IMG/VR virus record: IMGVR_UViG_2740892351_000003
Span: 119,237 to 139,236 of that record
Length of the DNA: 20,000 nt
Direction: 5' to 3' (one strand)
From: an uncultured virus (IMG/VR IMGVR_UViG_2740892351_000003)
Lineage: Duplodnaviria; Heunggongvirae; Uroviricota; Caudoviricetes
A program made the translations under genes and the position numbers. This document shows positions 3,001 through 8,002 of the stretch, in pieces. Each line of letters begins with the position of its first letter. The stretch's first letter is position 1. The notes beneath the pieces were generated by a model, which saw nothing but the letters and a program-made list of their open reading frames with translations, did not search any database and had not been told where the DNA came from.

Positions 3001-5166
3001 AACATATCAGGGCTTATTAGGAAAATAGAGTCATTTAAATCAAATTATGCAGGAAAAACATTCACTACTACATTTGTAACTAATAAAGTGACTAATAGTT
3101 CTGGTGGTGGAGGAGGAGGAAATAGTTCAGATAAGACCAATAAAACTGAACGTACCTCTGTTACTAATGTAACTCCAATTCCAGCTAATCTATTAGCTCA
3201 ACCTAGAACATCAGAACCAGCACCAATAAGTGACGAAACTCCTGTAACACCAAAACCATCCTTATTCTCAAGAGCAGTATCAAGAGCCACATCCGCTTTC
3301 AAAGTAATCAAACCTAAAGTTACAATAAACAATGACACAATAGACTCATCTGTAAAATATAGTATAGAATTATTTAAAGAGTTAGAAAATGCTATATCAG
3401 CAGTAACAAATGAAATAGCTCTATTAGACAAAAAAATGGAACATGCTACAGGTGATGAGAAGATTAAATACTTACAGGAGCAAAATAAATTATTTGCTCA
3501 ACAAAAAGATTTAATAAAACAACAACAAGATGGATATAAAGCTGAAAGTAACAGACTTAAAAATAGATTAAAAGAAAAGAAAATGGGCTTTAAGTTTGAT
3601 GATACTGGAAATCTAACTAACTATGAAGAAAAGTTAATATCAATAGAAAAAGAATTAGACAAATTAAATTCAAAGTCTGGTGACAAAGAAAATAAAAAAG
3701 ATGAATCCAGAAAAAAAGAGTTGGAAGAAACTAAGAAAGTCCTTGAAGAATATATTAAAGTTACATTTACAGAACTGCCTAAATGTGAGCAAGAATGGGA
3801 AGAATACAATAATAAAATTAAAGAACACAATGAGGAGTTAAGGAAAGCACAAGAAGAAATGTGGAAACTTAATAAGAATTCCACATGGACTTCTATGTAC
3901 AAAGATGTAGAGCAAGTAAATAATGAAATAGCAATGATAGATGTATTACTTAAAAATGCTACAGGTGATGAGCAGATAGAGTTGTTAGAAAAGAAAAAAG
4001 AGTTAATGGCCAAGAAGGCTAAAGAACTATCTGAAACAACAGCATATCTTCAAGAAACACAAAAAGAGCTACAACAAAAGCTACAAGGCTATGGATTTAC
4101 ATTTAGAGATAATGGCGATATAACTAACTTCATTCAACATAAAAATCAACTTAAAAAGAACATGACTGATGAAGAATTTAAGAGAATGGAAGAGGCAGCA
4201 GAGGGATATTTGGATTTATTGATAAATAAAATACCTGATGCCAATAAGGAAATTGCTGAATCTAAGGAAGAAATTGAAGCATTAAATAAAGAAATTCAAG
4301 ATGCTTATAAAGACCAGCTTAAAGAAGCTCAAAGCCTACAAGAAAAAATTAGAGACATGTATAAAAAAGAGCTTGAAGAGAGACTTAAAGAAATAGATAA
4401 AGAAACTAAAGCTAAAATTGATTCTCTTAAAAAGCAACAAGATGCTTACAATGATTCAAGAAAAGAAGCCAAATATAAAGATGATTATGAAGAACAACAA
4501 GATGTAATAAGTGATTTAGAAAAACAAATAGCAATAGCTGAAAGAGATAGTTCTTTAAGTGGTCAGAAGAAACTTAAAGATTTACAAAAACAATTAAAAG
4601 AAGAACAGAAGAAATTACAGGATTTAGTACAAGACCATGTAGACGACCAAGTTAACGATATGTATGACAAGGAATCTGACAGACTACAAGAAGAAGCAGA
4701 TAAGTTAAAAGAAGAGTTAGAGAAAAAATACTCAGATGAAAATTTAGTTGATTTAATTAATGAAGCAATTTCAAGTGGTAAATTTGTAGGTCTTGATGGA
4801 GAGGTTAAGAAACTTCAAGATGCTATTATTGAATACATAAATAAATATGAAGATGGTATGTTGGCAATGGGTTCTGTCACTAAGCAGGAATGGCTTGATA
4901 AGCTAAAAGAAGGTAAAGAGACATTAGAAGATATTAACGACATATTAGATGAATTAGATTTAAGTAAATTTGCTATGCCTAATTATAATCCTTCTTCAAA
5001 TTCTCGTTCAAGAAGTGTGTCTCCAACATCATCAGTCAACTTTAATTCACCATTCTTTGTTGTTCAAGGAAATGTAACTAAGGATACTATGAAAGACTTA
5101 GAGAAATTTGGTAGAGATTTAGAAAATAGAGTATATAGAAAAATAGTAGAAAATATTAAATCATAG
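1..5166 (+). CDS. Phage tail tape measure protein, 5' truncated by the window edge
   Basis: Frame 1 is open from base 1 (GTLNIATSLLNGAMIG...) to TAG at 5164-5166, so the true start lies upstream. More than 1700 aa, mostly helical/coiled-coil and K/E-rich, with a hydrophobic patch near the start. The C-terminus (VNFNSPFFVVQGNVTKDTMKDLEKF...) is typical of tape-measure ends, and tail/baseplate genes follow. Confidence 0.9.
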   Translation, partial: GTLNIATSLLNGAMIGLATFAISKGIQWIDDTIHKYEKLAEKQKEVIGTTTSEISSLQQKKKSLEGISEEYNNLASKTEKTADETARFSELKQQIADIAPELVLGVDENNDPILNMSGNLDEVINKLRKAIEEKNKLLKSQEDELAITTSKTAPNTKKDLDKEKKKLDKVLEDENNLFKNALSKSNFKEQTEALKKAYNQQETDFAEHHQNLLTEYEKYNEEEEVMQKRAINRLTNSDISKTYAKQSEQKKSKMNELVANMNWHDYSVGQQNSIISAFDKISQSIPVEKLDQWNKKITDANTNYQASGDMNQYTKELQGLANELQKLSGGSISADTWLVGLQQGFYGLDLASVKLHTFLKSYGSSLAEFENKDSLAIKLKNQFDALNDFSQDLEVNGKINVKLLEDIQSGEDGQDLPQQLKEFINGIMADGDAPIEAESELLLQITTKIENEGQLSNDVVEKLNRLFKGELTPLEIGDGLKISDDLPPLSKEMVQALNDKYKEEFKKNKVAPEITPSVNGKKAKKELKELEQFKKNTFKSDKIVTEINNKGLDFAKKDLSVLKEQLDRFKNEDTKLSFTTDCADAFKDVNSLEEARKKISAPMSLKYDIDVDKKGLTEAKKVYDILPDNLKKKIETEVIGIDKLDTLQNLIDKAPNKKETIFEIINKNPDKLNEIDEILNNVPNDKKEAVIDFIVNNLDQLEKAKNVQELINSLPPEIKKQLGIEVEGGENAEKTVNTVQNADGTKADLLVNAEVNGESQVVECIETLDKNGNKTYTPNLNPQVNNSEKVVQCMRILDEYGNESYIPIVSPQVTNEEGLNSTKQKMDELDNKTVTSTVQIKTEGETEVEQATNFIENTNPTKVIELSINNSGKDEIDNTKQKLDELNNEKATPTIEATGAEQASKQLNQLSQKAQEIGQGNYHINVSTSTEQGAKNISGLIARVKQFLALKVSTLVFRTETAQAAKNVSGLLAKVQSYVSRYGGKTIKTTFSALTATAAKNISGLIRKIESFKSNYAGKTFTTTFVTNKVTNSSGGGGGGNSSDKTNKTERTSVTNVTPIPANLLAQPRTSEPAPISDETPVTPKPSLFSRAVSRATSAFKVIKPKVTINNDTIDSSVKYSIELFKELENAISAVTNEIALLDKKMEHATGDEKIKYLQEQNKLFAQQKDLIKQQQDGYKAESNRLKNRLKEKKMGFKFDDTGNLTNYEEKLISIEKELDKLNSKSGDKENKKDESRKKELEETKKVLEEYIKVTFTELPKCEQEWEEYNNKIKEHNEELRKAQEEMWKLNKNSTWTSMYKDVEQVNNEIAMIDVLLKNATGDEQIELLEKKKELMAKKAKELSETTAYLQETQKELQQKLQGYGFTFRDNGDITNFIQHKNQLKKNMTDEEFKRMEEAAEGYLDLLINKIPDANKEIAESKEEIEALNKEIQDAYKDQLKEAQSLQEKIRDMYKKELEERLKEIDKETKAKIDSLKKQQDAYNDSRKEAKYKDDYEEQQDVISDLEKQIAIAERDSSLSGQKKLKDLQKQLKEEQKKLQDLVQDHVDDQVNDMYDKESDRLQEEADKLKEELEKKYSDENLVDLINEAISSGKFVGLDGEVKKLQDAIIEYINKYEDGMLAMGSVTKQEWLDKLKEGKETLEDINDILDELDLSKFAMPNYNPSSNSRSRSVSPTSSVNFNSPFFVVQGNVTKDTMKDLEKFGRDLENRVYRKIVENIKS
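2263..2445 (+). repeat. Two ~29-aa tandem repeats in the tape measure protein
   Basis: VNGESQVVECIETLDKNGNKTYTPNLNPQ / VNNSEKVVQCMRILDEYGNESYIPIVSPQ, followed by a partial VTNE. Confidence 0.75.
2788..3036 (+). repeat. Three amphipathic repeats (AKN[IV]SGL) in the tape measure protein
   Basis: TEQGAKNISGLIARVKQF / TAQAAKNVSGLLAKVQSY / TATAAKNISGLIRKIESF. Confidence 0.8.
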
Positions 5167-5195
5167 ATTATTTATATAAACAAAGGATTTTAAGT

Positions 5196-5230
5196 AGAAA
5201 TCCGGATTTCTCTAACAAAATCCAGATTTT
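5196..5230. promoter_or_regulatory. Pair of related palindromes, possible operator
   Basis: Perfect 16-bp palindrome AGAAATCCGGATTTCT (5196-5211) and variant AAAATCCAGATTTT (5217-5230), centres 20 bp apart, directly upstream of the promoter at 5233. Confidence 0.45.
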
Positions 5231-5232
5231 AT

Positions 5233-5261
5233 TTCAAAAAATAATATGTATATGATATAAT
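5233..5261 (+). promoter_or_regulatory. Sigma-A-type promoter for putative antitoxin RNA 1
   Basis: TTCAAA (5233-5238), 17 bp spacer, TATAAT (5256-5261) with extended -10 TG (TGaTATAAT). Confidence 0.6.
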
Positions 5262-5267
5262 AATGAT

Positions 5268-5420
5268 ATAAATGATATAAATTTATATCATAAAGACATA
5301 AAAAAAGAGACTACAAACTATTTGCTGTAGGGTGTAGTTCTTAAAGTTAACAATAAAAAGAATAGATTTATGTATTACTTTCAGAATCACTAGACCCGCC
5401 AGTCTGGTGATTCTTTAATT
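5268..5420 (+). ncRNA. Putative type I antitoxin RNA (~150 nt), antisense to the 53-aa toxin mRNA
   Basis: Bounded by the promoter at 5233-5261 and the hairpin/T-rich tail at 5383-5422. Has a 5' hairpin at 5272-5291 and overlaps convergently the 3' end and 3'UTR of ORF 5368-5529(-). Ends are estimates. Confidence 0.65.
5300..5340 (-). terminator. Intrinsic terminator of the toxin mRNA
   Basis: Minus strand reads GAACTACA-ccctacagcaaatagtt-TGTAGTCTC-TTTTTTT (ACTACA/TGTAGT stem then a U-run). Confidence 0.6.
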
Positions 5421-5529
5421 TTCTAATAGATGCTTTCAAGTTTAAGATTGCATCTATTAGCTTTGTCAAATGATTGATTATTCTTGTAATCATAATTATC
5501 ATTATTAAAAACAAAACTAAGTACTCCAT
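5368..5529 (-). CDS. Small hydrophobic protein (53 aa), putative type I TA toxin
   Basis: Manually translated: MEYLVLFLIMIIMITRIINHLTKLIDAILNLKASIRKLKNHQTGGSSDSESNT*. Strong SD GAAAGGGGGTGA 4 nt before ATG (5529). N-terminal hydrophobic helix and basic/polar tail, with its own promoter and terminator and a convergent antisense unit. Not in the ORF track. Confidence 0.8.
   Translation of the reverse strand: MEYLVLFLIMIIMITRIINHLTKLIDAILNLKASIRKLKNHQTGGSSDSESNT
5383..5422 (+). terminator. Terminator hairpin of putative antitoxin RNA 1
   Basis: AGAATCACTAGAC-ccgcca-GTCTGGTGATTCT (13-bp stem, one G-U) followed by TTAATTTT. Confidence 0.65.
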
Positions 5530-5607
5530 AGTCTCACCCCCTTTCTTACTGGGGATTTTAACTAAAGAGCCATCACCCTAATAGTCTAAACTGTAGTCTC
5601 TAAAAAT

Positions 5608-5635
5608 ATTATACCATAATTTTCCATAATGTTAA
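5608..5635 (-). promoter_or_regulatory. Sigma-A-type promoter of the toxin gene
   Basis: Minus strand TTAACA (5635-5630), 16 bp spacer, TATAAT (5613-5608) with extended TG (TGgTATAAT). The predicted start at ~5601 coincides with the edge of the long inverted repeat. Confidence 0.65.
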
Positions 5636-5648
5636 ATTTAATATTATA

Positions 5649-5678
5649 TTGACGACAGCAGTAGAATAAAGATATAAT
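5649..5678 (+). promoter_or_regulatory. Near-consensus sigma-A promoter, back-to-back with the toxin promoter
   Basis: TTGACG (5649-5654), 18 bp spacer, TATAAT (5673-5678). Confidence 0.7.
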
Positions 5679-5731
5679 ACAGGTAACAGAAAATTAAAAT
5701 ATTTTTACATAAAGAATTTCTACTTATCTAG

Positions 5732-5757
5732 GCCACCTTAAACAAGTGGCTATTTTT
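5732..5757 (+). terminator. Terminator/attenuator-like hairpin
   Basis: GCCAC-cttaaacaa-GTGGC followed by TATTTTT, about 70 nt downstream of the predicted start of the promoter at 5649-5678. Confidence 0.55.
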
Positions 5758-5790
5758 ATACTCTGGTATATATTTAAGGAGGTGTTACAA

Positions 5791-5946
5791 ATGATAAATA
5801 ATATAGAAGATTGTAAGCTTCTTATTGAGATAGAAATAAGAATGAAAGGTATAGATGAAAAAGAACTAATATCTCAAAGCGAAATTCTGAAAGACCTAAA
5901 TATTAATGAAAAAGACCTTGAAGATATTGAAGTGAATTTTGAATAA
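5791..5946 (+). CDS. 51-aa acidic protein resembling the C-terminal half of clostridial Phd/YefM-type antitoxins
   Basis: Perfect SD AAGGAGGTG at 5776-5784 favours ATG 5791 over the track's start at 5746. Sequence MINNIEDCKLLIEIEIRMKGIDEKELISQSEILKDLNINEKDLEDIEVNFE. The pattern IED..L.IE...RM...IS..E[IV]...L.I.E.DL.DI.V..E resembles, from memory, the C-termini of such antitoxins. The ORF is well supported; the function is inferred. Confidence 0.6.
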   Translation: MINNIEDCKLLIEIEIRMKGIDEKELISQSEILKDLNINEKDLEDIEVNFE

Positions 5947-6036
5947 TGAAATGATTTATAATATACCTATTTAAAACATGTATTAATTGATATCAGTAAT
6001 AGTGATTTTTTATTTATTAACTGTAAACGAATCTGT

Positions 6037-6063
6037 TTTACAAAAACGTATTTATGATATAAT
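6037..6063 (+). promoter_or_regulatory. Extended -10 promoter for putative orphan antitoxin RNA
   Basis: TGaTATAAT at 6055-6063; TTTACA at 6037-6042 (15 bp spacer, suboptimal). Confidence 0.55.
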
Positions 6064-6069
6064 AAAAGT

Positions 6070-6175
6070 AAGGAATTTAATCTACTTAATACAAAGAGTG
6101 ATTGTTTCCTTAAAGTTAATTAAAAATCAATTTATCTTTTGAAACCACTCTTATTGGCGTTTGAGTGGTTTTTTG
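6070..6175 (+). ncRNA. Putative orphan type I antitoxin RNA (~105 nt)
   Basis: Promoter upstream and strong terminator at 6142-6174. Antisense to a toxin-like remnant, and shares CTTAAAGTTAA (6109-6119) with antitoxin RNA 1 (5340-5350). Ends are estimates. Confidence 0.6.
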
Positions 6176-6245
6176 CTTTATCATATATGTAACAAACTAT
6201 TAAACTTGTTGCAATATTTAGATTAATAAAATATTTTAACTCATC
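6132..6245 (-). pseudogene. Start-less remnant of a short C. difficile-type type I toxin
   Basis: Minus frame reads *DELKYFINLNIATSLIVCYIYDKAKNHSNANKSGFKR*. The hydrophobic stretch plus YIYDK..NHS.ANKSG tail resembles the ~34-aa C. difficile prophage type I toxins (recalled). There is no in-frame ATG/GTG/TTG, no SD, and an in-frame TAA at 6248-6246. Confidence 0.65.
6142..6174 (+). terminator. Intrinsic terminator
   Basis: AAACCACTC-ttattggcgttt-GAGTGGTTT followed by TTT (9-bp perfect stem). Confidence 0.8.
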
Positions 6246-6286
6246 TTAATTGATGGGCTTTTCTAATACAAAGAAGGTGATAAAAT

Positions 6287-8002
6287 ATGCATTTTAATGT
6301 GAATCTTAAACAGATAAAATCTGATTACACATTAACCATTCACAAGATGAACAAATCATTTTTAGGTCAAATCCCAATCAACTTTTTAAATTCTATAAAG
6401 CGTGAGCTTGGTGGAGTAGATGAAATACAACTTACCATTCCAAAACATATTACAGAACGTTTTCAATTCTCTAAAGTAGTAAATCCTCTATTTGATGAAA
6501 TGAAAGAAGAACGTCTTATCTGTCTCAATGATAAAGAGTACTTTGTAATTAAGAATGTTGTGACCACAGATGACAAGTTAAAAGTAGTAACAGCTAAATC
6601 TAAAGAAGTTAAACTAGGAAAAATTGATGTGAATATTGAGGACTATGGATTACAGATGTTTACCAAAGATGAAGAAGCATCTATTATATCTCTTAATGAT
6701 TATTTAAAACAAGAGACAGGCTGGAAACTTGGTTATGTGGATGATTCAATTGCTTATGAAACTGATAGTGAAGGTAATAAGAGAGAAAAGGTAAGATGGC
6801 AAGAAAGTATTAATTCTAACTGGTTAGACTATTTTAATAATGAACTAAAAGAACAATTTGAATGTATAGCTGATTTTGATACTTATAATAATTTAGTTAA
6901 TTTATATCATATAGACAGTTTTGGAGATAACATTCAGTTATATTTATCTCATGATAACTACATAAAATCACTTGAAAGAACTACAAATAGTGATGATATA
7001 GTAACTAGACTGAAGCTTGAAGGTAGTGAAGATATGGATATAATAGGAGCTACAGTTACAGGATATGATTACATTGAGAATTATTCTTATTTCTTAGACA
7101 ATAAAGAAATGAGTGAAGAACTTAGTAAAGCTATAAAGAAATATCAAGAAATGAATGAAATAAGAGAGCCAATTTGGAGAGAACTAATAGATACAAAGCT
7201 TAAGAAACAGAGAGAATGTGATAGTAAAAGCAATGAATGGTTACATGTAATAGAGACTATAAAGGCTAAAAAGGATATAAAGAAAACTTATGATAATCCA
7301 GAACATAAAGATGAAGTAAATTCAGCTAAGTTAGCAGTAGAGATAAGTGAACTAGAAGATAAAAAAGTGATATTAGATGTTCAAATAAAACATTTAGAAG
7401 AAGAAATAGCTAAGTTAGATGAAAGTATAAAAGATATAAATATTCTTTGTAAGAGGGAGACTTCAACTGATGAGGATGGATATTTAATATTTAATGAGGT
7501 TCTATTAGATGAATTAAATGAGTTCCTCTACTATGACACTTATACAAATGATGCTTTTTTAAAAGTTGAAGATTTAATAGCAGAAGGTAAAAGGCAATTA
7601 AGTTTGAAATGTATTCCAACACGAGAATGGACTCTGGATGTTATAAACTTCTTAGATAGAATTATAGATATTAATTTTAGACAACATTGGAAGGGAGATT
7701 TGAGTTTAGGAGATATTATAGTGTTACATAGCAAAGAATCTAAAGAAGAAGAATTAGTATATTTTACATCTTTTACCCAGAATTTAAAAAATGGGAAATT
7801 GGATACTTTAGAATTAACTTTAAGTAATAAAAAAATAAAAGAAGATGACAAAAGAACTATAGCTGATTATTTGACTAAAGCTGAACATGCAACAAGAACA
7901 TTGAACTCTAAAAGACATTTATTTATTCAGCAACAGAAGAAAAGAATTAACCTACCAGATGAATATATTCCTAGGAAAAATATACAAAAGGAGCTGATGT
8001 AA
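6287..8002 (+). CDS. Phage tail protein (Tal/tail-hub, prophage tail endopeptidase-like; SPbeta YomG-like)
   Basis: 571 aa; SD AAGAAGGTGA at 6271-6280. Motifs FECIADFDTYNNLVNLY, YIKSLERTTNSDDIVTRLKLEG and LSLGDIIVL...TLELTLSN are typical of siphophage tail hub proteins. Located downstream of the tape measure gene. Confidence 0.75.
   Translation: MHFNVNLKQIKSDYTLTIHKMNKSFLGQIPINFLNSIKRELGGVDEIQLTIPKHITERFQFSKVVNPLFDEMKEERLICLNDKEYFVIKNVVTTDDKLKVVTAKSKEVKLGKIDVNIEDYGLQMFTKDEEASIISLNDYLKQETGWKLGYVDDSIAYETDSEGNKREKVRWQESINSNWLDYFNNELKEQFECIADFDTYNNLVNLYHIDSFGDNIQLYLSHDNYIKSLERTTNSDDIVTRLKLEGSEDMDIIGATVTGYDYIENYSYFLDNKEMSEELSKAIKKYQEMNEIREPIWRELIDTKLKKQRECDSKSNEWLHVIETIKAKKDIKKTYDNPEHKDEVNSAKLAVEISELEDKKVILDVQIKHLEEEIAKLDESIKDINILCKRETSTDEDGYLIFNEVLLDELNEFLYYDTYTNDAFLKVEDLIAEGKRQLSLKCIPTREWTLDVINFLDRIIDINFRQHWKGDLSLGDIIVLHSKESKEEELVYFTSFTQNLKNGKLDTLELTLSNKKIKEDDKRTIADYLTKAEHATRTLNSKRHLFIQQQKKRINLPDEYIPRKNIQKELM

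What the first reader, a model, noticed from the sequence alone, without database searches (positions are those of the whole stretch)
5776..5946. Stand-alone antitoxin C-terminal fragment with no DNA-binding domain and no toxin
Seen: 51-aa highly acidic ORF with a perfect SD, and no ~90-100 aa toxin ORF between 5946 and 6287. Recalled, not searched: clostridial Phd/YefM-family antitoxins paired with RelE/ParE toxins end in a similar ...IE[DN]..L..EA..RM...IS...V...LGI.E.DL.DI.VEIE tail, the region expected to bind toxin. Inference: a trimmed antitoxin with its own strong start could inhibit RelE/ParE-type toxins in trans. A generic acidic DNA-mimic role is the alternative.
Basis: inference. 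Interest (0 to 1): 0.75.

Follow-up and report, generated by a model that had tools for sequence, protein, structure and literature searches.

The report
Toxin-less antitoxin stub in phage
A 51-residue gene in a large Clostridioides difficile phage is the surviving toxin-binding tail of an antitoxin whose complete toxin-antitoxin pair sits at the same spot in sister phages, so it is either a stand-alone antidote against those sisters' toxin or a decaying leftover.

Summary
An acidic 51-aa ORF lies at 5791-5946, behind SD AAGGAGG (5776-5782). No toxin gene follows it, and none is found anywhere in the 139-kb phage.

A profile of the ORF family matches the C-terminal 50 residues of about 110-aa Phd/YefM antitoxins (hhalign 99%, E 4e-18), and these sit directly upstream of RelE-family toxins.

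Sibling phiCD211-like phage-plasmids carry the complete Phd/YefM-RelE pair at exactly this site, between tape measure and Dit. Here the antitoxin's own SD is fused to internal Met61, so codons 1-60 (the DNA-binding/dimerisation core) are gone. The proximal promoter is also gone, and the toxin is cut after codon 2.

Among 24 Dit-anchored sibling loci, 7 have the full pair, 13 the stub only and 4 neither.

Whether the stub still works is open:
- For: the frame is intact in 17 of 17 loci, a second independent core-deleted allele exists, and the stub is the majority allele.
- Against: dN/dS is about 0.6-0.9 within the stub lineage, one allele has lost its ATG, one has a damaged SD, and the substitutions show no constraint pattern.

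My odds: stand-alone immunity or anti-addiction allele 0.45, inert remnant 0.40. Binding could not be modelled here.

The parts
5791..5946 (+). 51-aa ORF. It corresponds to residues 61-111, the toxin-binding tail, of a Phd/YefM-type antitoxin.
   Evidence: (phrog_13860, E 8e-34)
5776..5782 (+). Shine-Dalgarno AAGGAGG. It is the ancestral antitoxin gene's own SD, now 8 nt upstream of the internal Met codon.
   Evidence: DNA alignment with the full module of pCd18_2. The SD is identical in 15 of 17 stub loci, including pCD1602_4 (whose start codon is ATT), and has 2 nt deleted in L024/L025.
5946..5954 (+). Remnant of the RelE-family toxin gene: ATG AAA TGA (Met, Lys, stop). Homology to the sibling toxin gene ends at 5953.
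5649..5678 (+). Sigma-70-like promoter TTGACG-18-TATAAT. It is the only candidate promoter left upstream of the stub.
   Evidence: 11 of 12 positions; about 94-100% conserved in siblings
5731..5759 (+). Weak hairpin (GGCCAC/GTGGCT, 9-nt loop) followed by a T-run. It lies between the promoter and the stub and would have to be read through.
   Evidence: Read from the sequence; the centroid fold shows only this hairpin; the terminator scan did not call it.
5954..6236 (.). DNA that replaces the toxin gene. It includes a type I TA-like cassette shared with phiCD38-2-type phages (6058-6221).
5368..5529 (-). Divergent neighbour: a 53-aa hydrophobic small ORF (phrog_5620), type I toxin-like. It is not the stub's partner.

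Best explanation
SHOWN (confidence about 0.95). The ORF is the C-terminal, toxin-neutralising third of a Phd/YefM-type antitoxin. Its ancestor was a complete Phd/YefM-RelE operon at this exact site, between the tape-measure and Dit genes, where sibling phiCD211-like phage-plasmids still carry one. Three changes produced the present state. One deletion fused the antitoxin's own SD to internal Met61, removing the beta-sheet DNA-binding/dimerisation core. A second removed about 80 nt holding the operon's proximal promoter. Third, the toxin gene was replaced after its second codon by a type I TA-like cassette.

INFERRED (the confidence given below). The stub is still made, by read-through from the conserved upstream promoter at 5649-5678. 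It acts as an immunity-only allele. As an acidic peptide predicted to form three helices, it would fold onto the basic RelE-family toxin made by sibling phage-plasmids, or by a second RelE allele present in C. difficile genomes, and block it without repressing anything. This would let its phage displace, coexist with or infect cells holding a TA-bearing relative without post-segregational killing or abortive infection.
For: Homology:
- The profile of 10 close homologues found 28 proteins at E<=1e-3 among 1.84e9 representatives. The longer hits carry PF02604 N-terminally and match the stub at their C-terminus.
- hhalign against 8 toxin-linked full-length antitoxins gave 99.0% probability and E 4.1e-18, over columns 62-114 of 115.

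Toxin linkage:
- In 7 of 9 full-length genome loci an intact ParE_toxin/RelE ORF follows with 1-4 nt overlap.
- In 62 of 62 further viral loci an ORF abuts the toxin, and 53 of 62 match the stub-only HMM at E<1e-3.
- 16 of 25 places found in 400 Clostridia genomes are full-length antitoxin plus toxin.

Same-site origin:
- pCd18_2 has a 111-aa antitoxin (PF02604, 30.5 bits against gathering cut-off 29.8) and a 111-aa toxin matching E. coli RelE at E 1.4e-6. Both lie between the TMP and Dit genes.
- The DNA alignment shows the SD-to-Met61 fusion and the toxin gene cut after codon 2.

For retained function:
- The stub frame is open in 17 of 17 DNA loci (6 alleles) and in 13 protein variants. The adjoining 93-nt type I toxin remnant is frameshifted in 6 of 13 loci.
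- A second allele in C. difficile (P0015/P0016, 67 aa) deletes the same core in frame but keeps the tail.
- The stub is the majority state: 13 of 24 IMG/VR loci, and 5 of 6 C. difficile PLSDB hits.
- The promoter-leader-SD-ORF block is 92-100% identical in the most divergent sibling, where flanks are 58-80%.
- Candidate targets exist in the same host species. These are the sibling module (7 of 24 loci) and a second RelE allele, 84-87% identical, on contigs up to 656 kb.
- Contigs from RNA libraries cover the ORF in 4 of 4 runs from 2 studies.
Against: - Within the stub lineage, changes are mostly non-synonymous: N:S of 9:3, 4:1 and 5:0, and dN/dS 0.57-0.86 where computable. Against the full-length tail the ratio is 0.18-0.27.
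- Variable positions are not enriched in family-variable columns (Mann-Whitney p 0.29, Spearman rho 0.06). They hit conserved columns such as position 14, which is Ala in 95% of the family.
- One allele (pCD1602_4) has ATT in place of ATG. One allele (L024/L025) lost 2 nt of the SD.
- The proximal promoter is deleted and a hairpin with a T-run stands before the ORF.
- In run X4 the contig over the ORF has depth 12.7, against 172-363 on the neighbouring small-RNA/toxin modules. This is about the level seen on the Dit gene, and DNA carry-over cannot be excluded.
- The cassette is absent from ES-S-0107-01, L031 and L040.
- The stub is only 63-73% identical to the sibling antitoxin tail. A paper passage states that type II antitoxins usually cross-neutralise poorly (PMC11825919, passage).
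- No binding model or assay exists.
Confidence: 0.45

Rival explanations
1. Inert erosion remnant. The TA module decayed in the usual order, with the toxin lost first. What remains of the antitoxin is drifting, and it is still open only because the lineage is young and the ORF short. It may be transcribed by read-through, but it has no selected function.
For: - dN/dS is 0.57-0.86 within the stub lineage, with N:S of 9:3, 4:1 and 5:0.
- Substitutions show no constraint pattern.
- One allele lost its ATG and one has a damaged SD.
- The proximal promoter is deleted.
- The whole island looks like a TA graveyard. The neighbouring 38-aa type I toxin is 5'-truncated here and frameshifted in 6 siblings.
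- Three siblings have lost the cassette.
- The conservation of the block in pCD1602_4 includes non-coding and synonymous sites, so it fits recent recombination as well as it fits selection.
- An open frame of this length is not rare by chance in this island: 411 of 2000 shuffles.
Against: - The deletion places the native SD at ideal spacing before an in-frame Met.
- A second, independent allele also removes only the core, in frame.
- There is no frameshift or stop in 17 loci, while a true remnant beside it is broken in 6 of 13.
- It is the commonest allele at the locus. Phage genomes tend to purge useless DNA (general knowledge).
Confidence: 0.4
2. The stub has been re-used for something other than RelE neutralisation. 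Examples would be a generic acidic DNA mimic or anti-restriction protein, or a decoy that titrates the toxin-antitoxin repressor complexes of relatives.
For: The protein is acidic (net charge -9.5) and predicted helical at pLDDT 72. The changed substitution pattern could reflect a new constraint. C. difficile phages do carry acidic helical anti-defence proteins such as AcrIB2 (PMC10732046, passages).
Against: No hit in PADLOC, Pfam or NCBIfam. No significant fold match: Foldseek found nothing, and VIA gave Z<=3.6. Acidity is inherited from the antitoxin tail. The AcrIB2-like gene of phiCD211 lies elsewhere, according to the passage seen.
Confidence: 0.08
3. The stub is the protein partner, or a regulator, of the divergently transcribed 53-aa membrane peptide next to it.
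For: The two are driven by back-to-back promoters 5635-5608 (-) and 5649-5678 (+). They co-occur in most siblings.
Against: The two separate freely. ES-S-0107-01, L031 and L040 have the peptide without the stub. pCD1602_4 has the stub without a detectable peptide. Phages bearing the full TA keep the same promoter block. The peptide has its own convergent antisense layout, typical of type I systems.
Confidence: 0.03

Closest known systems
Phd/YefM-RelE (StbD/StbE-like) type II toxin-antitoxin modules. The nearest is WP_009894885.1/WP_009894887.1 of C. difficile phage-plasmid pCd18_2.
   Same: The stub aligns residue for residue with positions 61-111 of that antitoxin, at about 71-73% amino-acid and 83% nucleotide identity. 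It uses the same SD and sits at the same genomic site.
   Different: It has no Phd/YefM beta-sheet core, no operator or proximal promoter, and no toxin gene. It therefore cannot autoregulate or addict.
Orphan antitoxins used by phages as counter-defence: AdfN, a DarG-like NADAR enzyme of T-even phages (PMC11825919; abstract and passages seen).
   Same: An antitoxin homologue carried by a phage without its toxin, proposed or shown to neutralise a TA toxin made by another replicon.
   Different: AdfN is a whole enzymatic type IV antitoxin with demonstrated activity. This is a type II antitoxin cut down to its binding tail, and its activity is untested.
Anti-addiction modules: antitoxins that neutralise the toxin of an incoming or competing replicon. 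The idea is cited in passages of PMC13617665 and PMC11825919; the original paper, Saavedra De Bast 2008, is recalled and was not read.
   Same: An antitoxin in one replicon could cancel post-segregational killing by a related TA on an incompatible sibling replicon.
   Different: The classical cases are complete chromosomal TA pairs. Here only the neutralising domain remains, and it is allelic to the addictive module.
TA erosion and pseudogenisation (PMC13617665; passages seen).
   Same: Toxin loss with a surviving antitoxin piece, in a variable hotspot.
   Different: The truncation keeps translation signals and the reading frame, and it is the commonest allele.
Isolated antitoxin C-terminal peptides that neutralise RelE, Doc or YoeB in vitro (recalled from the TA structural literature; not checked here).
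   Same: They show that a toxin-binding tail can suffice without the DNA-binding domain.
   Different: Those are laboratory constructs. This would be a natural gene of that design.

Membership tests
Phd/YefM antitoxin family (PF02604) | N-terminal Phd/YefM beta-alpha core for dimerisation and DNA binding | tested here: not met
   No Pfam hit for the 51-aa or 66-aa reading at E<=10. The stub aligns only to residues 61-111 of the 111-aa sibling antitoxin. In the AF2 model of a full-length relative, all three strands (15-17, 38-43, 46-52) lie before the stub's start.
Phd/YefM antitoxin family (PF02604) | C-terminal tail homologous to that of family members encoded beside a toxin | tested here: met
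   hhalign gave 99.0% probability and E 4.1e-18. The library-wide profile gave E 3.4e-8 to 3.4e-4 for proteins bearing PF02604. 53 of 62 toxin-adjacent viral antitoxins match the stub HMM.
Type II toxin-antitoxin module | Cognate toxin gene in the same operon or genome | tested here: not met
   The toxin gene is cut after codon 2. There is no match to the toxin profile A5 or to PF05016, PF15781, PF06769 or PF02661 in the 139-kb phage. The positive control rang in 2 of 2 TA-bearing siblings, and the search was negative in 3 of 3 other complete stub-bearing phages.
Type II toxin-antitoxin module | The antitoxin binds and neutralises the toxin | not testable with these tools
Phage-borne orphan antitoxin or anti-addiction gene | Stand-alone antitoxin homologue with intact expression signals on a mobile element | tested here: met
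   SD and ATG are both intact in 14 of 17 loci. There is an upstream promoter. RNA-library contigs cover the ORF in 4 of 4 runs, although transcription is not proven.
Phage-borne orphan antitoxin or anti-addiction gene | A target toxin exists in the same host or among competing elements | tested here: met
   The full module is present in 7 of 24 sibling loci and in 1 C. difficile plasmid record. A second C. difficile RelE allele is 84-87% identical.
Phage-borne orphan antitoxin or anti-addiction gene | Purifying or adaptive selection on the orphan | tested here: inconclusive
   dN/dS is 0.57-0.86 on very few changes. There are no frame breaks, but one start-codon loss and one damaged SD. The substitutions show no constraint pattern, p 0.29.
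Acidic DNA-mimic or anti-defence proteins | Homology or fold likeness to a known mimic or anti-defence family | tested here: inconclusive
   No PADLOC, Pfam or NCBIfam hit. Foldseek found nothing and VIA gave Z<=3.6.

The most novel reading that the evidence does not exclude
The TMP-Dit site of phiCD211-like phage-plasmids holds a three-allele conflict of the colicin rock-paper-scissors kind. The alleles are an addictive killer (complete Phd/YefM-RelE), an immunity-only cheater (the 51-aa tail, and independently the 67-aa core-deleted form) and an empty, sensitive state. The stub would be maintained by frequency-dependent selection. It would let its carrier displace TA-bearing incompatible relatives, and its fast amino-acid turnover would reflect tracking of toxin alleles rather than decay.
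Probability: 0.2. Interest if true: 0.8.

Novelty: new variant of a known kind. Interest (0 to 1): 0.55.

Why it matters
If the stub is active, it would be a natural type II antitoxin reduced to its neutralising tail and carried by a phage without any toxin. That would be an immunity-only allele competing at the same locus with the addictive module of sister phage-plasmids in a major hospital pathogen. The anti-addiction idea has little experimental support, according to the passage seen in PMC11825919. Here it would become directly testable with three naturally occurring alleles. It would also show that small "hypothetical" acidic ORFs in phages can be hidden antitoxin fragments that Pfam-style annotation misses.

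If the stub is inert, the locus is still a clean, datable example of stepwise TA erosion in a phage hotspot.

Tried and rejected
- First family scans used a wrong frame and were repeated correctly.
- Pfam, NCBIfam and PADLOC gave nothing for the stub. PHROGs gave only an unannotated family.
- The word-indexed protein search found only 13 close C. difficile homologues, and nothing among longer proteins. Only the exhaustive profile search reached the full-length relatives.
- A PDB sequence search with the stub profile gave chance-level hits.
- Foldseek on the stub model found nothing. VIA-align against 48,161 chains gave Z<=3.6; RelB and DinJ chains are at the top, but with rmsd 6-8 A, so this is not evidence.
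- Foldseek on a full-length relative's model gave best E 0.19.
- Rfam found nothing in 5000-6500 apart from a chance snoRNA hit.
- The leader plus SD region does not fold better than shuffles, z 0.40.
- No direct repeat links the leader to the 53-aa ORF mRNA.
- Relatives cannot be drawn for a virus record.
- The genomic context of the 67-aa allele (P0015/P0016) could not be fetched; the viral scan returned only the 7 full-module loci.
- The partner antitoxin of the second toxin allele (P0065-P0070) was not found in IMG/VR, PLSDB or the phage collection.
- RNA evidence comes from assembled contigs only. Parts without cover, contig ends and depths are not evidence of transcript ends or levels.
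- The search of earlier findings returned nothing.
- Literature searches on phiCD211 plus toxin-antitoxin (6 papers) and on orphan antitoxin plus phage (26 papers) found no description of this stub in the listings and passages I saw. Supplements were not opened.

Full report
WHAT IS THERE

The window belongs to a phiCD211/phiCDIF1296T-like large phage of Clostridioides difficile. Megablast of 5167-6290 gave 98% identity to those records. The window's own record is a 139,236-bp virus contig that CheckV rates 100% complete. According to passages of PMC5786514, these phages are extrachromosomal "plasmidial" prophages, and some carry a toxin/antitoxin system.

The finding lies in a 1.1-kb non-structural island between the tape-measure gene (ends 5166) and a Dit-like tail gene (starts 6287). 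The ORF runs from ATG 5791 to stop 5944-5946, 51 aa, behind AAGGAGG at 5776-5782. It has 15 acidic and 6 basic residues and pI 4.2.

An ORF of this length is not rare by chance in the island: 411 of 2000 shuffles produced one. The case therefore rests on homology. GenBank records call the ORF hypothetical. It falls in phrog_13860, of unknown function, at E 8e-34. It has no Pfam, NCBIfam or PADLOC match.

WHAT IT IS

The word-indexed search found only 13 close homologues, all C. difficile, at 84-98% identity. It found nothing among longer proteins.

A profile of 10 of these homologues, run against every one of 1.84 billion representatives, found 28 proteins at E<=1e-3. The longer hits (P0018, P0024, P0031, P0032, P0035) carry the Phd/YefM domain in front of it. 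P0031 scores 30.8 bits against a gathering cut-off of 29.8; the others fall below the cut-off.

Eleven genome loci were retrieved with a sub-alignment. Nine hold a full-length antitoxin of about 110 aa.
- In 7 of the 9, an intact ORF of 105-136 aa follows with 1-4 nt overlap. Six of these 7 reach the PF05016 ParE_toxin cut-off of 23 bits, with scores of 23.2-28.0; the seventh scores 18.8.
- One locus has the toxin split in two.
- One locus (Clostridium homopropionicum) has none.

hhalign of the stub family against 8 toxin-linked antitoxins gave 99.0% probability and E 4.1e-18, over columns 62-114 of 115.

Two wider samples agree.
- In 62 further viral loci found through the toxin, 62 of 62 have an ORF abutting the toxin. 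Of these, 53 match an HMM built from the stub family alone at E<1e-3. Only 22 of the upstream proteins are distinct, and 2 are cut by contig ends.
- In a sample of 400 Clostridia genomes, 23 have the domain, at 25 places. Sixteen places are a full-length antitoxin plus adjacent toxin, and none is a stand-alone ORF of 70 aa or less.

WHERE IT CAME FROM

A C. difficile phage-plasmid in PLSDB, pCd18_2 (136 kb), has a complete annotated pair at the same place, between the TMP and Dit genes. The pair is a Phd/YefM antitoxin of 111 aa and a RelE/ParE toxin of 111 aa.
- The antitoxin passes the PF02604 cut-off (30.5 bits against 29.8) over residues 15-79.
- The toxin matches E. coli RelE chains at E 1.4e-6. 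The Arg and Tyr that align with RelE's catalytic R81 and Y87 are conserved; that numbering is recalled, not from a call.

The window's 51 residues align with antitoxin residues 61-111. The stub's Met is the internal Met of ..EEMINAIEDY... The DNA alignment shows four things.
1. The divergent-promoter block and leader (5597-5765) are conserved.
2. About 80 nt that hold a TTGATA-17-TATAAT promoter in pCd18_2 are missing here. I read that promoter from the alignment; no promoter scan was run on it.
3. The antitoxin's own SD (AGGAGGTGTTA) is joined directly to the Met61 codon, with codons 1-60 gone.
4. The toxin gene survives only as ATG AAA TGA (5946-5954). From there to 6236 the DNA is unrelated.

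In an AF2 model of a full-length relative (pLDDT 74), all three beta-strands precede the stub's start. The stub begins inside the long helix 54-83. The stub alone is predicted as three helices at pLDDT 72.

THE LOCUS IS POLYMORPHIC

I anchored on the Dit protein and fetched 24 sibling loci from IMG/VR. Their island content:

| State | Loci |
|---|---|
| Full pair | 7 of 24 |
| Stub only | 13 of 24 |
| Neither | 4 of 24 (2 of these with under 820 nt of upstream sequence) |

Other collections give a similar picture.
- In the GenBank phage collection, 7 records (6 phages) have the stub, and no C. difficile phage record has the toxin.
- In PLSDB, 1 C. difficile record has the pair and 5 have the stub.
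- The toxin profile found nothing in the window's phage or in 3 other complete stub-bearing phages. It rang at E 3e-53 in 2 of 2 TA-bearing phages.
- A second RelE allele, 84-87% identical and 106 aa long, is named from C. difficile on contigs up to 656 kb. I could not fetch its context.
- A second truncated antitoxin form also exists in C. difficile (P0015/P0016, 67 aa). It has the first 17 residues of the full-length protein, an in-frame loss of the core, and then the tail. Its context could not be fetched either.

IS THE STUB STILL DOING ANYTHING?

For:
- The deletion keeps an ideal SD-ATG arrangement.
- Two independent alleles remove only the core.
- There is no frameshift or stop in 17 DNA loci (6 alleles). 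The 93-nt remnant of a type I toxin beside it is frameshifted in 6 of 13 loci.
- It is the majority allele.
- In the most divergent sibling (pCD1602_4), the promoter-leader-SD-ORF block is 92-100% identical while flanks are 58-80%.
- RNA-library contigs cover it in 4 of 4 runs from 2 studies. One run has a 190-nt contig matching exactly 5762-5951.

Against:
- Within the stub lineage, N:S counts are 9:3, 4:1 and 5:0, with dN/dS of 0.57-0.86. Against the full-length tail the ratio is 0.18-0.27.
- The 22 variable positions among 13 stub proteins are no more variable in 44 toxin-linked antitoxins than the invariant positions are (Mann-Whitney p 0.29).
- pCD1602_4 has ATT for ATG, and L024/L025 lost 2 nt of the SD.
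- The proximal promoter is gone and a weak hairpin plus T-run precedes the ORF.
- The contig depth over the ORF in run X4 (12.7) is at the level of the Dit gene, far below the neighbouring modules (172-363). Contigs cannot prove transcription.
- Three siblings have lost the cassette.
- The conservation in pCD1602_4 extends to non-coding sites, so it fits recent recombination as well as selection.

MECHANISM AND ODDS

Shown: the identity and origin of the stub.

Inferred from established knowledge of type II systems: in this family the C-terminal tail of the antitoxin wraps the toxin, while the N-terminal core dimerises and binds the operator.

I give these odds.
- 0.45: the stub is an immunity-only allele. 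It would be expressed by read-through from the 5649-5678 promoter and would neutralise the RelE of sibling phage-plasmids or of the second host allele. That would permit displacement of, or infection alongside, TA-bearing relatives.
- 0.40: it is an inert erosion remnant.
- 0.08: it has been re-used for something else.
- 0.03: it serves the neighbouring 53-aa peptide.

COMPARISON AND NOVELTY

It works like, and derives from, a Phd/YefM antitoxin. It fails two defining tests for membership as a functional TA module: it has no core domain and no toxin.

The nearest concepts are phage orphan antitoxins (AdfN, PMC11825919), anti-addiction modules and TA erosion (PMC13617665). I saw abstracts and passages of these papers only.

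I found no description of this stub in the listings and passages returned by the searches. Supplements were not opened.

A type II antitoxin naturally reduced to its neutralising tail, allelic to the complete module in sister phages, is a new variant of a known kind.

Noticed in passing
window 5233-5635, both strands: A 53-aa ORF on the minus strand (5529..5368, phrog_5620) has a hydrophobic N-terminus and a charged tail. It has a strong SD, its own promoter (5635-5608) and a convergent plus-strand promoter (5233-5261) and terminator (5383-5414) overlapping its 3' end. This is the layout of C. difficile type I toxin-antitoxin modules. An RNA contig covers 5301-5571. phiCD211 and phiCDIF1296T carry two diverged tandem copies of the module; the window has one.
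   Followed up: partly
window 6058-6227: This region is shared with phiCD38-2-type phages. In phiCD38-2 it lies just 3' of a small 'putative membrane protein' gene. Window 6227..6135 (minus strand) encodes residues 8-38 of a 38-aa lysine-rich hydrophobic peptide. That peptide is intact in 6 siblings. Here it is 5'-truncated: the start, SD and promoter lie on a 164-bp piece missing after 6221. In 6 other siblings it is frameshifted. RNA contig depth is high over 6089-6221 in one run. It looks like an orphaned type I antitoxin RNA next to a dead toxin.
   Followed up: partly
window 5167-6286 and sibling loci L001-L004, L017-L041: The TMP-Dit gap is a cassette hotspot. Siblings differ by whole modules: one or two 53-aa modules, the Phd/YefM-RelE pair or its stub, and the type I cassette with or without its toxin. 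The break points recur at 5762/5763, 6057/6058 and 6221/6222.
   Followed up: partly
L015 / L141 (Clostridium homopropionicum contig): The same antitoxin tail is fused to the C-terminus of a 437-aa PF09820 AAA-ATPase-like protein. The same genome also holds a full-length antitoxin with no toxin behind it (L013/L118). A 389-aa 'AAA family ATPase' from Kordiimonas is listed in the same 90% cluster as a 51-aa tail-only protein.
   Followed up: no
window 5733-5742 and 5773-5782: The left arm of the leader hairpin (CCACCTTAAA) is 9 of 10 complementary to the SD region (TTTAAGGAGG). It could act as an anti-SD. The region as a whole folds no better than shuffles.
   Followed up: partly
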